From Escherichia phage WPEC5: a stretch of 64,000 bases of DNA. Each line of letters begins with the position of its first letter. The stretch's first letter is position 1. Below are positions 59,216 to 61,493 of the stretch, piece by piece. The DNA lies in the sequence record PV654397.1, one strand, 5' to 3'. A program made the position numbers and the translations under genes. The notes below the pieces were generated by a model, which had not been told where the DNA came from, did not search any database, and saw only the letters and a program-made list of their open reading frames with translations.

Positions 59216-59360
59216 TATGTAAAGTAAATCCTAAACCAACACCAACAATTGGGAATAGTAAATTAACATACCATGTGTTCATTGTTAAAAAGGAATAAGC
59301 ACCTGAAGCTGTCAGTACTGCCAGTGAGAAAAGACTCCAGATAAAAAATAATGCTCTCAT
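59178..59360 (-). CDS. small membrane protein (60 aa)
   Basis: Two hydrophobic helices. Confidence 0.4.
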   Translation of the reverse strand: MRALFFIWSLFSLAVLTASGAYSFLTMNTWYVNLLFPIVGVGLGFTLHSVCKDYNDKYNK

Positions 59361-59647
59361 AAAAATGTTACCTCGTTAGATGAGTAGTTACGATATATTT
59401 GTGAATTATGTTCCACACCATGAATTGTTATATGCCCGTTGTAGAAAAAAGTAATATCTACAACTTTGAGTTCTTTACGTTTTTTAGTACTGAAATATCT
59501 ACCCACTAACGCAGCATATATATAATCCCTGTACTCTTGAGTAATGAATTTATACATATTATGATTTGCACTACACTTTTCATCATAAGTATTAGTATAT
59601 TCTTTCATCAGTATAGCATATGTTTTTTGTATCAATATAATATTCAT
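59357..59647 (-). CDS. hypothetical protein (96 aa), possible diverged member of the downstream paralog array
   Basis: N-terminus IQKTYAILMKEY resembles IQFTYRVLYMEY. Confidence 0.45.
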   Translation of the reverse strand: MNIILIQKTYAILMKEYTNTYDEKCSANHNMYKFITQEYRDYIYAALVGRYFSTKKRKELKVVDITFFYNGHITIHGVEHNSQIYRNYSSNEVTFL

Positions 59648-59907
59648 CTATAGTTTAATATTGAAATGGGTAGACTATATATATGTACGTAAAGTTTATC
59701 AACTCTTTCCATATTCACTTTTAAAGTACTTCCAAGACGACTGATGCTATCTATGCGATAAAGCACGTCATTCAGCATCATTACGGTATCGGTGTAATCT
59801 TCACTAAGAGATTCAATGTAGATATCTTCAAGTTTCACATCCGTGCGTGGGATATCTAAATCCCTCAATAAACGCAGTGTTTGCACGATCAGTTCAGCTT
59901 TAGTCAT
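59644..59907 (-). CDS. hypothetical protein (87 aa; internal start chosen)
   Basis: Track start 60030 would overlap the Zn-ribbon gene by 131 nt; ATG at 59907 follows its stop. Confidence 0.4.
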   Translation of the reverse strand: MTKAELIVQTLRLLRDLDIPRTDVKLEDIYIESLSEDYTDTVMMLNDVLYRIDSISRLGSTLKVNMERVDKLYVHIYSLPISILNYR

Positions 59908-60100
59908 GGATACGCTCACAATTAAGGCAATAAATGCACTCAATGTCAGGTCGCCATGATTTATCAAAATCTTTGTGCTGTTCTTCAGTGTATTCCGAAT
60001 CATCATTGATGGGAAAGAAATCACCAGCACCAGTGGCCCAGTCTGAATCTAAACGGAAACGAGCTAATTGAGTACTGTTGCAATATGGACATTTATTCAA
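59900..60100 (-). CDS. small zinc-ribbon protein (66 aa)
   Basis: CPYC near N-terminus, CIYCLNC near C-terminus. Confidence 0.5.
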   Translation of the reverse strand: MNKCPYCNSTQLARFRLDSDWATGAGDFFPINDDSEYTEEQHKDFDKSWRPDIECIYCLNCERIHD

Positions 60101-60377
60101 AATTTATTCCTTCTAACTGATATACGTTTAATGAAAATGACCCACTATTATTATCGCATCTGAAACACAGTGTTAAAGAACCATTAAAACTAACAACATC
60201 AGTACATATACATTTTTCACCATTGGATATGATAGATTTTCCTATATATAAATCTCTTACTATAGTACGGTAATGTTGCCATAAAAAATAATACACACTT
60301 TCATAGTACTCATCTTTTACATATGACAAGTATAAGAATTTATAAAATACTTGTATTTCCTTTAAGTTGTTTTTCAT
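60093..60377 (-). CDS. paralog-array protein E (94 aa)
   Basis: N-terminus MKNNLKEIQVFYKF; family-like Cys-containing C-terminal half. Confidence 0.5.
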   Translation of the reverse strand: MKNNLKEIQVFYKFLYLSYVKDEYYESVYYFLWQHYRTIVRDLYIGKSIISNGEKCICTDVVSFNGSLTLCFRCDNNSGSFSLNVYQLEGINFE

Positions 60378-60648
60378 TCTCCAACTCCAGTAAATTTACA
60401 CCAATCCAACCCTGTCCTTCTGTATATAATTCTAATCGTAGCTTACCACTATGACTGACAACATCTTTACAAGTGTAAATTCTACCATCACGAACAATGC
60501 GAACACTACCGTAATACGCTTTTAATTCATCTAAAAAATCAATCCATATCGTTCGAAAGGTTTCATAATAGTGATAGTCTTTAGGATCAGTATGAGAGTA
60601 CTCCATGTATAAAACTCTATATGTGAATTGTATATCATTAAGATTCAT
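60340..60648 (-). CDS. paralog-array protein D (102 aa)
   Basis: N-terminus MNLNDIQFTY. Confidence 0.5.
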   Translation of the reverse strand: MNLNDIQFTYRVLYMEYSHTDPKDYHYYETFRTIWIDFLDELKAYYGSVRIVRDGRIYTCKDVVSHSGKLRLELYTEGQGWIGVNLLELENEKQLKGNTSIL

Positions 60649-60658
60649 ATGTCAATCC

Positions 60659-60970
60659 TTATAGGTCCGTTAACTTCAAAACTTTGATCTCCATAAATTC
60701 CCTATCAGTTTTTTCAAGAAATTCTACATGGATAATACCTTGATAAGATTTGACACCTGAATATTCGAATATATCATCTCCATCAGTGTAAGTACTGTAA
60801 TTCTTTTTTATATATTCAGCAATAGAATCTAAGTAATCATAGTAATTATGAATAAATGGTGATTCTTTTGATTCTACATGTTCACCAATCTTCCCACTAA
60901 AAAGATACATGTCATACAAACCGTATATATTTTTATATGTGAATTGAACATCATTCAAATTTAATTTCAA
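60659..60970 (-). CDS. paralog-array protein C (103 aa)
   Basis: N-terminus MKLNLNDVQFTY. Confidence 0.5.
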   Translation of the reverse strand: MKLNLNDVQFTYKNIYGLYDMYLFSGKIGEHVESKESPFIHNYYDYLDSIAEYIKKNYSTYTDGDDIFEYSGVKSYQGIIHVEFLEKTDREFMEIKVLKLTDL

Positions 60971-61227
60971 GGGAATATCTCCAGAGGAACACTCGTAAAT
61001 CCAAAATCTGTGAAGAACTGTACCTCAACTTTACCATCGAGCTTAATGATTATATCTGAAAATTCTGCATGATCGTTATTAATAATTACAGTACTGAATT
61101 TTTCTTTAATCCTCTCACGCACAGTATTAATCATTTCATTACATGTATCTTCTAAAAATATACTATTATTTTTATTTGCTAGGTCACGAATGCACTTGAA
61201 TGTTAATTGGAAATCTTTATAATTCAT
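60967..61227 (-). CDS. paralog-array protein B (86 aa)
   Basis: N-terminus MNYKDFQLTF. Confidence 0.5.
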   Translation of the reverse strand: MNYKDFQLTFKCIRDLANKNNSIFLEDTCNEMINTVRERIKEKFSTVIINNDHAEFSDIIIKLDGKVEVQFFTDFGFTSVPLEIFP

Positions 61228-61493
61228 ATATTCACCAAATCCACAGAGAATAGGTCGTTATCAAATTTATATGAAAGTACTAATCTACCACCGAAACTAT
61301 CTACTCTAAGTATCTTTCGTTTTTTTCCATTAATGACAATTTCAGTATTAACAAAATACTCACGTAATTCTTCTAGATAATTTGACCATATTTTATGGGT
61401 AAACGCATTTTTATTAATTGTGTTAGTACTTCGGTGATTGTGGTGTAATTTAAATAATTCCATATAAGTGAATTGTATATGTTTGTAATTCAT
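61224..61493 (-). CDS. paralog-array protein A (89 aa)
   Basis: N-terminus MNYKHIQFTY. Confidence 0.5.
   Translation of the reverse strand: MNYKHIQFTYMELFKLHHNHRSTNTINKNAFTHKIWSNYLEELREYFVNTEIVINGKKRKILRVDSFGGRLVLSYKFDNDLFSVDLVNI

What the first reader, a model, noticed from the sequence alone, without database searches (positions are those of the whole stretch)
59357..61493. Tandem array of five or six small paralogous genes
Five adjacent 86-103 aa ORFs start with near-identical peptides (MNYKHIQFTY, MNYKDFQLTF, MKLNLNDVQFTY, MNLNDIQFTY, MKNNLKEIQVFY) and diverge downstream; a sixth, more diverged copy may lie at 59357..59647. Such arrays of diversified small proteins in phages are often host-range or anti-defence factors under diversifying selection. 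The array is bracketed by a terminator at 61506..61533.
Basis: seen in the sequence. Interest (0 to 1): 0.5.

Follow-up and report, generated by a model that had tools for sequence, protein, structure and literature searches.

The report
Paralogous small-protein operon in jumbo coliphage
A jumbo E. coli phage of the 121Q/PBECO4 group (Asteriusvirus) carries one tightly packed operon of six, probably seven, old duplicates of a ~90-residue protein of unknown function that share one fold, are not found in the virion, and swap alleles between related phages; this is a real but fairly ordinary accessory gene family.

Summary
All genes lie on the minus strand.

**The family**
- The five ORFs P1-P5 (60093-61493) are true paralogs over their full length.
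- The sixth copy, P6 (59357-59647), is also a member. The family HMM gives E=1e-5, hhalign gives 80%, and an independent AlphaFold model has the same topology (TM 0.81-0.87 to a P1-type model).
- The ORF at 59644-59907 is probably a seventh member.
- A conserved zinc-ribbon gene interrupts the array.
- The fold is a helical hairpin plus a four-strand meander, with no whole-fold PDB match.
- No Pfam, NCBIfam or PADLOC family matches.
- The family is confined to Asteriusvirus-like jumbo phages and sits at a single locus in the genome.

**Evolution**
- Copy number differs in distant syntenic relatives, from about 5 to at least 6-9.
- Individual genes have been exchanged between lineages as cassettes. 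P5 is 100% nucleotide-identical to 121Q, while P4 is only 72% identical.
- Gene-wide dN/dS is 0.14-0.9. Constraint is relaxed but diversifying selection is not demonstrated.

**Corrections and function**
- Orthologs are absent from the phAPEC6 virion proteome, so these are not structural host-range factors.
- The "bracketing" terminator lies upstream of the array, not at its end.
- The most likely role is inferred, not shown: early or delayed-early accessory proteins that bind host or defence targets.

The parts
61510..61534 (-). Intrinsic-terminator hairpin plus T-run that ends the upstream gene g421. It marks the 5' boundary of the array transcription unit, 16 nt before the P1 start codon.
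   Evidence: The scan finds a 9-bp stem with 5 GC pairs followed by TTTTTGT. The hairpin is conserved in 121Q, ph0011, UE-S1 and SD-15, and in the distant relative L008 with stem and loop changes.
61224..61493 (-). P1, 89 aa, pI 9.5. Its stop overlaps the P2 start (ATGA).
   Evidence: ORF listed. Matches phrog_32291 and phrog_21004. phmmer to P4 and P5 gives about 1e-7. Family HMM E=9e-32.
60967..61227 (-). P2, 86 aa, the most diverged of the five. Its stop overlaps the P3 TTG start (TTGA).
   Evidence: phrog_35943, cross-hit to phrog_21004 at 3.7e-4. phmmer to P3 gives 7e-3. Family HMM E=3e-24.
60659..60970 (-). P3, 103 aa, TTG start. It is truncated or chimeric in the Salmonella phages SD-2, SD-6 and SD-15.
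   Evidence: phrog_21004, 4e-35. See also (P0025 chimera, P0027 truncation).
60340..60648 (-). P4, 102 aa. Its 3' end overlaps the P5 start by 38 nt. The body at 60410-60619 is a swapped allele of the ph0011 type.
   Evidence: AlphaFold model: pLDDT 86.3, pTM 0.75. Mosaic breakpoints.
60093..60377 (-). P5, 94 aa. It is 100% nucleotide-identical to the 121Q allele, while neighbouring genes are 66-80% identical.
   Evidence: (dN=dS=0 against 121Q).
59900..60100 (-). Zinc-ribbon protein, 66 aa (CxxC...CxxC), highly conserved. It is embedded in the array but is not a family member.
   Evidence: Matches phrog_22354. Amino-acid identity to other Asteriusviruses is 95-100%. Orthologs are present in L008 and L011.
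59644..59907 (-). g428, 87 aa, probable seventh and most diverged family member. Its allele is only 29% identical to the 121Q allele.
   Evidence: The 121Q and UE-S1 alleles hit the family HMM at about 1e-3, and the window allele at 0.06. hhalign of the group against the family gives probability 87%, E=3.8e-6, over residues 7-84.
59357..59647 (-). P6, 96 aa, pI 9.0, a diverged sixth member with the same fold.
   Evidence: HMM E=1.3e-5. hhalign 80%. AlphaFold from its own orthologs gives pLDDT 88.2 and the same topology. Foldseek TM 0.81/0.87 to a P1-type model.
59178..59360 (-). Small hydrophobic (membrane-like) 60-aa ORF, translationally coupled to P6 (ATGA). It belongs to the same operon but not to the family.
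   Evidence: GRAVY +0.62.
57809..57828 (-). Next terminator-like hairpin on the coding strand, and the likely 3' end of the transcription unit that contains the array.
   Evidence: A terminator is annotated at the equivalent place in UE-S1.
62171..62199 (-). Conserved sigma-70-like promoter (TTGACA-17-TATATT) in front of g421 (61540-62154). It is the nearest conserved promoter upstream of the array.
   Evidence: The sequence is invariant in the four relatives aligned.

Best explanation
**Shown**
- Positions 59357-61493 of this Asteriusvirus-type jumbo coliphage hold a single-locus family of six, probably seven, anciently duplicated genes. Each encodes a soluble protein of 86-103 aa.
- All share one compact fold: an N-terminal helical hairpin packed against a four-strand beta-meander.
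- The genes are translationally coupled, with ATGA/TTGA overlaps, and are interrupted only by a conserved zinc-ribbon gene.
- They lie inside a 12-gene unit bounded by two intrinsic terminators, in a region rich in co-oriented sigma-70-type promoters.
- The unit sits between a Dam methylase and a T4-like Rnl1/PNKP tRNA-repair module.
- The proteins are not virion components.
- They evolve 2-4 times faster at the protein level than their neighbours, but under net purifying selection.
- They differ widely in charge (pI 4.8-9.5).
- Whole-gene or part-gene alleles are exchanged between phage lineages by homologous recombination. In the one exchange mapped at nucleotide level (the P4 body, window against Ecwhy_1), the 5' breakpoint lies at the conserved N-terminal coding motif and the 3' breakpoint near the gene end.

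**Inferred**
- They are early or delayed-early accessory proteins expressed by read-through from the upstream promoter.
- The conserved helix-1 motif (MNxxDIQFTYK) forms the structural core.
- The variable surfaces bind different host or host-defence proteins.
- On this reading each paralog is a separately maintained specificity, and allele shuffling adapts the phage to different E. coli strains.
For: **Paralogy and fold**
- Pairwise and profile statistics.
- P4 model: pLDDT 86, helices at 3-19 and 25-46, then four strands.
- P6 model built from an independent alignment: pLDDT 88, same element order.
- Reciprocal BFVD matches between subfamilies at TM 0.67-0.87.
- hhalign for P6 and g428.

**Single locus.** A genome-wide HMM scan of the 352-kb relative TH47 finds only this array.

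**Restricted distribution.** A word-index search found 27 proteins. An exhaustive HMMER search of 1.84 billion representatives found 20 hits. Apart from two long repeat proteins, all are small proteins of Asteriusvirus or of uncultured relatives.

**Ancient subfamilies.** P1-, P3-, P4- and P5-type orthologs occur in distant relatives.

**Copy-number change in syntenic contigs.** L008 has about 5 copies and L011 at least 6-9.

**Not in the virion.** (PMC7247149, Table 1).

**Selection.** dN/dS is 0.14-0.30 for the array against mostly 0.04-0.15 for flanking genes. P4 and P5 alleles reach 0.4-0.9.

**Mosaicism**
- The window differs from Ecwhy_1 only at 60410-60619, inside P4, and at 59046-59322.
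- P5 is identical to 121Q.
- P4 and P5 alleles are reassorted among four phages.
- P6 has intragenic recombinants.

**Dispensability.** P3 is truncated or chimeric in the SD phages.

**Early-type context**
- 19 near-consensus sigma-70 promoters lie on the coding strand and 1 on the other. Shuffles give 2.3.
- The g421 promoter and terminator are conserved.
- A comparable region of short ORFs with RpoD-like promoters is interpreted as early or host-takeover in the related phage CBB (PMC5259590).

**Neighbouring functions.** Dam, Rnl1 and PNKP. The phAPEC6 authors link such functions to countering Prr.
Against: - There is no direct evidence for function, timing or any binding partner.
- No similarity to any characterised anti-defence, takeover or regulatory protein was found by sequence.
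- dN/dS is below 1 everywhere, so an arms race is not demonstrated.
- The array has no conserved promoter of its own and sits directly behind a strong terminator, so expression level and timing are unknown.
- Tight translational coupling and co-retention of all copies in the E. coli phages would fit a hetero-oligomeric complex equally well.
- The SD phage records carry many truncations, which may partly be sequencing or assembly errors. This weakens the dispensability argument.
Confidence: 0.45

Rival explanations
1. The paralogs are subunits of one hetero-oligomeric phage complex that is not part of the virion, for example an assembly, replication or RNA-handling accessory. On this view they work together rather than as independent binders.
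For: - The genes are translationally coupled (ATGA/TTGA overlaps).
- All copies are retained in every E. coli Asteriusvirus examined.
- The subfamilies are old and kept distinct.
- A highly conserved zinc-ribbon protein is embedded in the array.
Against: - Copy number and order differ in the syntenic relatives L008 and L011.
- P4 and P5 alleles that are 72% identical reassort freely between lineages. This is unexpected for co-adapted interfaces.
- P3 is truncated in the SD phages.
- No oligomer prediction could be run.
Confidence: 0.15
2. They are small nucleic-acid-binding regulators of phage or host gene expression, for example transcription or translation modulators. Each paralog would recognise a different site.
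For: - The genes are small, soluble and sit in an early-type region.
- Two members are basic: P1 has pI 9.5 and P6 has pI 9.0.
- The C-terminal beta-meander loosely resembles SH3/KOW-like modules, but the BFVD hits to such proteins have low TM scores.
Against: - Most members are acidic, with pI 4.8-5.8.
- No helix-turn-helix, ribbon-helix-helix or KOW family is detected.
Confidence: 0.1
3. Structural host-range determinants (virion or fibre-associated factors), which is one reading of the first reader's proposal.
For: Asteriusviruses carry many fibres and 'hairy' appendages (abstract of PMC7247149). Small diversified genes can accompany fibre genes.
Against: - The orthologs gp384c-gp389c are absent from the 62-protein phAPEC6 virion proteome.
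- No fibre or baseplate genes are nearby. The neighbours are Dam, Rnl1 and PNKP.
- None of the paralogs is hydrophobic overall (GRAVY below 0 for all). Signal peptides and membrane segments were not specifically tested.
Confidence: 0.04
4. Decaying or functionless duplicates: ORFs kept by chance in an AT-rich genome.
For: - They evolve faster than their neighbours.
- Some copies are truncated in the SD phages.
Against: - All reading frames are intact across lineages whose synonymous divergence is up to about 1.5.
- dN/dS is 0.14-0.3.
- Subfamily orthologs are retained in distant uncultured relatives.
- Two subfamilies give confident, concordant structure predictions.
Confidence: 0.03

Closest known systems
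PHROG families phrog_21004, phrog_32291, phrog_35943, phrog_28826 (and phrog_33961), all of 'unknown function'
   Same: These are the same proteins. P3 and P4 match phrog_21004, P1 matches phrog_32291, P2 matches phrog_35943, P6 matches phrog_28826, and g428 weakly matches phrog_33961. In GenBank the orthologs are 121Q gp422-426, gp428 and gp429, all annotated as hypothetical.
   Different: The databases split them into separate families. Here they are joined into one family with one fold, using cross-hits, hhalign and structure.
Plastic regions of small early ORFs in T4-type phages, with modular shuffling (Comeau et al. 2007; Arbiol et al. 2010). Cited from my own knowledge, not checked here.
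   Same: Both are blocks of small non-essential early genes in a large lytic myovirus. In both, genes are exchanged between relatives as gene-sized cassettes by recombination at short conserved sequences.
   Different: - Here the cassettes are paralogs of one family.
- Where mapped (the P4 exchange), the 5' junction lies in the conserved N-terminal coding motif and the 3' junction near the gene end, not in promoter/stem-loop cassettes flanking each gene.
- There is no sequence homology to T4 genes.
Host-takeover modules and small early inhibitor proteins, such as the SPO1 host-takeover module and T7/T4 early inhibitors (Ocr, Gp2). Cited from my own knowledge. The proposed early region of phage CBB is from PMC5259590.
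   Same: The proteins are small, soluble and non-virion, and lie in a region rich in sigma-70 promoters.
   Different: There is no homology or fold match to any of these proteins. Timing and targets are unknown here.
Anti-defence gene clusters in phages, such as anti-CRISPR loci and anti-restriction islands (own knowledge)
   Same: Both are clusters of small, fast-evolving genes that vary between related phages. This one sits near other counter-defence functions: Dam and Rnl1/PNKP.
   Different: - No match to any characterised anti-defence protein.
- No associated helix-turn-helix regulator.
- dN/dS is below 1.
- The copies are ancient paralogs rather than unrelated genes.
Uncharacterised ~90-aa proteins of Klebsiella phage RaK2 (H6X4R2, H6X4J9, H6X4H5)
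   Same: They are similar in size, come from a related jumbo myovirus, and match both the P4 and P6 models weakly.
   Different: TM scores are only 0.52-0.64, sequence identity is 10-13%, and E-values are 0.008-0.05. Homology is not established.

Membership tests
The array family itself (phrog_21004-like; N-terminal MNxxDIQFTYK motif) | Significant full-length sequence similarity among members | tested here: met
   P1-P5: phmmer 1e-8 to 1e-2, all match phrog_21004 at E<1e-3, and HMM E of 1e-24 to 1e-36. P6: HMM 1.3e-5 and hhalign 80%.
The array family itself | Common fold: helical hairpin plus four-strand meander | tested here: met
   The P4 and P6 models, built from independent alignments, share the same element order. 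Cross-subfamily TM scores are 0.67-0.87. P2 and P3 were not modelled separately.
The array family itself | Membership of g428 (59644-59907) | tested here: inconclusive
   hhalign probability 87%, E=3.8e-6. The 121Q allele scores HMM 1e-3, but the window allele scores only 0.06-0.19. No structure was predicted.
Genes under diversifying (positive) selection | dN/dS above 1 gene-wide or at specific sites | tested here: not met
   Nei-Gojobori dN/dS is 0.14-0.30 for P1, P2, P3 and P6, and 0.40-0.88 for the P4 and P5 alleles. Site models were not run: there are too few sequences and recombination is present.
Virion-associated host-range factors | Presence in purified virions | tested here: not met
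   The phAPEC6 orthologs gp384c-gp389c are absent from Table 1 of PMC7247149.
Known anti-defence or defence-related protein families | Sequence or fold match to a characterised member | tested here: not met
Known anti-defence protein families | Inhibition of a defence system in vivo | not testable with these tools
   This needs expression and plating assays.
   The hairpin and T-run are real and conserved, but they lie 5' of P1. The next coding-strand terminator is at 57828-57809.
Early (host RNA polymerase-transcribed) gene region | Enrichment of co-oriented sigma-70 consensus promoters | tested here: met
   19 promoters on the coding strand against 1 on the other at 11 or more of 12 matches. 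Shuffles give a mean of 2.3 and a maximum of 6. Actual timing was not testable.

The most novel reading that the evidence does not exclude
The family is a previously unrecognised scaffold for intracellular specificity in jumbo phages.
- Each paralog would neutralise or hijack a different, strain-variable E. coli protein, for example a distinct defence system.
- The conserved N-terminal coding motif would double as a recombination junction, letting phages swap specificity cassettes.
- This would make the locus a modular anti-defence array built from one fold that has no solved relative.
Probability: 0.15. Interest if true: 0.6.

Novelty: new member of a known kind. Interest (0 to 1): 0.3.

Why it matters
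- More than 80% of Asteriusvirus genes have no known function (PMC7247149), and these phages are being proposed for therapy.
- This work merges four or five separate "unknown" database families into one fold family confined to a single operon. It shows that the locus is a recombination hot spot with reassorting alleles.
- That gives a defined, small and testable set of candidate host-interaction genes.
- If they prove to be defence inhibitors or takeover factors, the conserved scaffold with variable surfaces would be a useful model of how jumbo phages diversify intracellular specificities.
- If not, this remains an ordinary accessory paralog family.

Tried and rejected
- **IMG/VR scans.** A degenerate DNA pattern for M-N-x-x-D-x-Q-F-T-Y found nothing, and a search with protein P0033 found no confirmed relative.
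- **AFDB50 fold search.** It was unavailable, so cellular structural relatives remain unchecked.
- **Pfam PF25742 (Phage_Gene33).** P6 matches at E=0.007, below the cutoff. Only 3 of 8 orthologs and none of the 25 family members match, so I rejected it.
- **Long repeat proteins P0032 (1932 aa) and P0036 (1243 aa).** Their scores in the exhaustive search are sums over 10-13 weak repeats. I rejected them as spurious.
- **Other small ORFs as remote members** (52007-53412, 57491-58116, 58913-59197). hhalign probabilities are at most 6%. The exception is 52313-52609 at 44%, E=2e-4, which is left as unproven.
- **Internal sigma-70-like promoter at the P3/P4 junction (60655-60627).** Its -35 element is not conserved in the 121Q clade, and it would start transcription inside P4. 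I do not count it as a real promoter.
- **Literature.** The Asteriusvirus genome papers on UE-S1, fEgEco12, Sharanji and phAPEC6 do not discuss these genes.
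Full report
**Source and layout**

The window comes from a jumbo coliphage of the genus Asteriusvirus (the 121Q/PBECO4 group). Region 59000-62300 matches 34 phage records. The best matches are Ecwhy_1 and fEgEco12 at 95.7% identity, and the 121Q clade matches at about 81%.

All genes lie on the minus strand. The reported ORFs are:

| Name | Coordinates | Length | 121Q equivalent |
|---|---|---|---|
| P1 | 61224-61493 | 89 aa | gp422 |
| P2 | 60967-61227 | 86 aa | gp423 |
| P3 | 60659-60970 | 103 aa | gp424 |
| P4 | 60340-60648 | 102 aa | gp425 |
| P5 | 60093-60377 | 94 aa | gp426 |
| P6 | 59357-59647 | 96 aa | gp429 |

All the 121Q equivalents are annotated as hypothetical. 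Between P5 and P6 lie a 66-aa zinc-ribbon gene (59900-60100) and an 87-aa ORF (59644-59907, here called g428).

Start and stop codons overlap (ATGA, TTGA, or 8-38 nt overlaps). The exception is a 10-nt gap between P3 and P4. This packing is typical of a translationally coupled operon.

**Is the similarity real?**

Yes, and it is not limited to the N-terminus.
- Against the 374 window ORFs, phmmer gives P1-P4 2e-7, P4-P5 about 1e-8, P1-P5 about 5e-7, P3-P4 about 3e-3 and P2-P3 about 1e-2.
- All five match phrog_21004 at E<1e-3. The match spans the whole profile for P1 and P3-P5; P2 matches only its C-terminal two thirds.
- A family HMM scores the five at 1e-24 to 1e-36.

P6 is the best non-seed hit.
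- It scores E=6e-4, rising to 1.3e-5 with a broader profile, and aligns collinearly from residue 1.
- Its positional equivalent in a distant relative scores 2e-8.
- hhalign of the P6 ortholog group against the family gives 80% probability, E=1.4e-5.

g428 gives 87% probability, E=3.8e-6. Its 121Q allele hits the HMM at 1e-3 and the window allele at 0.06. I call it a probable seventh member.

**Fold**

AlphaFold2 on P4, using 28 family sequences, gives pLDDT 86.3 and pTM 0.75. The elements are helices at 3-19 and 25-46, strands at 50-53, 56-66, 69-76 and 80-85, and a short helix at 86-91.

P6 was modelled from its own 8 orthologs only. It gives pLDDT 88.2 and pTM 0.77, with the same order of elements.

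Foldseek against BFVD links the subfamilies reciprocally.
- The P4 model hits an 89-aa P1-type protein at TM 0.75/0.85.
- It hits a 78-aa 121Q protein, probably the P5 ortholog, at TM 0.67/0.86.
- It hits the slurp01 P6 ortholog at TM 0.77/0.82 with 19% identity.
- The P6 model hits its own ortholog at TM 0.98 and the P1-type protein at TM 0.81/0.87.

**Distribution**

- A word-index search of 5.8 billion proteins found 27 members, all from Asteriusvirus.
- An exhaustive HMMER search of 1.84 billion representatives found 20 hits. They include new 85-105-aa proteins that keep the N-terminal MNYKDLQFTYK-like motif, plus two long repeat proteins that I regard as spurious.
- IMG/VR held none.
- A genome-wide scan of the 352-kb relative TH47 finds the family only at this locus.

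Two metagenomic contigs are syntenic distant relatives. Their gene order is Dam, a 179-aa gene, a ~200-aa acidic gene, the array, the zinc ribbon and further small genes. In the longer L008 this continues to Rnl1 and PNKP.
- L008 has three copies, then the zinc ribbon, a g428-like gene and a copy in the P6 position.
- L011 has at least 6-9 copies.

P1-, P3-, P4- and P5-type orthologs exist in such relatives. The duplications are therefore old, and the subfamilies have been kept distinct while copy number and order changed.

**Evolutionary dynamics**

Against the 121Q clade, array proteins are 54-78% identical, and g428 is 29%. Most flanking genes are 82-92% identical, although the two small ORFs just downstream of P6 are 74-77%.

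| Genes | dN/dS |
|---|---|
| P1, P2, P3, P6 | 0.14-0.30 |
| P4 alleles | 0.40-0.88 |
| P5 against ph0011 | 0.61 |
| Most flanking genes | 0.04-0.15 |

The three small ORFs at 57491, 58913 and 59178 reach 0.19-0.35. This pattern is relaxed purifying selection, and positive selection is not shown.

The locus is strikingly mosaic.
- The window is identical to Ecwhy_1 from 59384 to 62127, except for a block at 60410-60619 inside P4.
- The first 29 nt of P4, which encode MNLNDIQFTY, and its last 70 nt are identical between the two phages.
- P5 is 100% nucleotide-identical to 121Q (dS=0), while its neighbours are 66-80% identical.
- The P4 and P5 alleles, each pair about 72% identical, are reassorted. 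The window carries P4b/P5a, Ecwhy_1 and 121Q carry P4a/P5a, and ph0011 carries P4b/P5b.
- P6 has reciprocal intragenic recombinants.
- In the Salmonella-propagated SD phages, P3 is truncated or fused to P2, and the P6/g428 region is damaged. This suggests dispensability, although those records carry many truncations.

**Expression context**

The hairpin at 61534-61510 (minus strand) is a good intrinsic terminator. It is conserved in all Asteriusviruses checked and in L008. It lies upstream of P1, after the acidic gene g421 (61540-62154), which has its own perfectly conserved TTGACA-17-TATATT promoter.

The next coding-strand terminator is at 57828-57809. The array therefore sits in a 12-gene unit with no conserved promoter of its own. 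Read-through expression is inferred from this.

Across the window, 19 near-consensus sigma-70 promoters lie on the coding strand and 1 on the other. Shuffles give 2.3. A similar arrangement was interpreted as the early, host-takeover region in the related phage CBB.

The neighbouring genes are Dam (63241-63765), T4-like Rnl1 (55393-56535) and PNKP (53638-54570). The phAPEC6 authors note protective methylation and suggest the phage may counter Prr abortive infection. The phAPEC6 orthologs gp384c-gp389c are not among its 62 virion proteins.

**Interpretation**

Shown:
- A single-locus family of six or seven members sharing one fold.
- The proteins are non-virion and soluble.
- They evolve faster than their neighbours but remain under constraint.
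- They vary in charge, from pI 4.8 to 9.5.
- They are subject to cassette-like allele exchange.

Inferred:
- They are early or delayed-early accessory proteins.
- Helix 1 carries two hydrophobic stripes (I6/Y10/L13/Y17 and F8/V12/M15 in P4) and forms the conserved structural core.
- The variable surfaces bind different host or defence targets.

I give about 0.95 to the paralogy and fold claim, about 0.8 to "non-structural accessory", and about 0.35-0.4 to the host or defence binder mechanism. The overall figure is 0.45. The main rival is a hetero-oligomeric complex (0.15). Others are nucleic-acid-binding regulators (0.1), virion host-range factors (0.04) and junk ORFs (0.03).

**Verdict**

This is a real and well-defined paralog operon.
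- Diversifying selection is not shown.
- A structural host-range role is unlikely.
- The terminator was placed at the wrong end of the array.

It is a new, uncharacterised member of a familiar kind: small accessory paralog families in plastic regions of large lytic phages. The interest is modest. The fold has no solved relative, and the clean allele reassortment makes it a tractable candidate set for host-interaction screens.

Noticed in passing
window 61540-62199 (minus strand): g421 is a ~204-aa extremely acidic protein (pI 4.05, net charge about -28, C-terminal DDDDDDE tail). It has its own perfectly conserved sigma-70-like promoter (62199-62171) and a conserved terminator. The charge suggests it could be a DNA mimic or anti-restriction protein, but this is a guess. 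PHROG places it in phrog_15575 (unknown function), and there is only a weak PADLOC Cas8c hit (E=9e-4).
   Followed up: partly
window 59900-60100 (minus strand): A 66-aa zinc-ribbon protein (CPYC...CLNC) sits inside the paralog array. It is far more conserved than its neighbours: 95-100% amino-acid identity across Asteriusviruses, and it is present in the distant contigs L008 and L011. It has no family assignment. It could be a partner or regulator of the paralogs.
   Followed up: partly
whole window, minus strand (for example 62922-62894, 62199-62171, 54119-54091, 46045-46017): There is a strong strand bias of near-consensus sigma-70 promoters: 19 on the coding strand against 1 on the other, with 2.3 expected from shuffles. 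One is a perfect TTGACA-17-TATAAT inside the cytidylyltransferase-like gene at 62922-62894. This suggests the whole window is an early region transcribed by host RNA polymerase.
   Followed up: partly
window 52007-53412 (minus strand): This is a second run of five adjacent 84-101-aa ORFs just downstream of PNKP. They have a similar helix-then-strand sequence pattern (…Y[LVI]G[KR]xV… then hydrophobic-alternating strands). Only 52313-52609 approaches significance against the array family (HMM 2e-3 to 6e-3, hhalign 44%). A wider superfamily is possible but unproven.
   Followed up: partly
window 53638-54570 and 55393-56535; 63241-63765: A T4-like PNKP and Rnl1 (a tRNA-repair pair) and a Dam methyltransferase flank the region. 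The phAPEC6 authors note protective DNA methylation and suggest that phage may counter Prr abortive infection.
   Followed up: partly
window 59046-59322 (minus-strand ORFs 58913-59197 and 59178-59360): This is a second divergent block in an otherwise 100% identical alignment with Ecwhy_1. Here the window carries the ph0011-type allele. The block covers a 94-aa ORF and a 60-aa hydrophobic ORF, so mosaic exchange extends beyond the paralog family.
   Followed up: partly
L005, L006 (Salmonella phages SD-15_S21, SD-2_S15) and protein P0025 (SD-6_S16): The Salmonella-propagated Asteriusviruses have smaller genomes (310-326 kb) and many truncated genes in this region: a P2/P3 chimera, truncated P3, P6/g428 damage, and truncated Dam and cytidylyltransferase. 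This may be real genome reduction or sequencing and assembly errors.
   Followed up: no
proteins P0032 (1932 aa) and P0036 (1243 aa) from the exhaustive search: Two long tandem-repeat surface-type proteins reach E of about 1e-10 to 1e-12 against the family profile, through 10-13 weak repeat matches to the beta-meander part. I judged them spurious, but this was not examined further.
   Followed up: no
window 60627-60655 (minus strand): TTGACA-17-TACAAT spans the P3/P4 junction. Its -10 hexamer is formed by the conserved D-I-Q-F codons (GATATACAATTC) of P4. The -35 element is absent in the 121Q clade, so this is probably fortuitous. It does show that the conserved 5' motif can create a -10-like element.
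   Followed up: yes
hits P0008, P0019, P0022, P0049: Several orthologs are deposited in NCBI as 'Escherichia coli' proteins on contigs up to 352 kb. So Asteriusvirus genomes are present in bacterial assemblies. Two preprints that mention Asteriusvirus report lytic or virulent phages found in bacterial isolates and assemblies; I did not read them to check whether they cover this genus.
   Followed up: no
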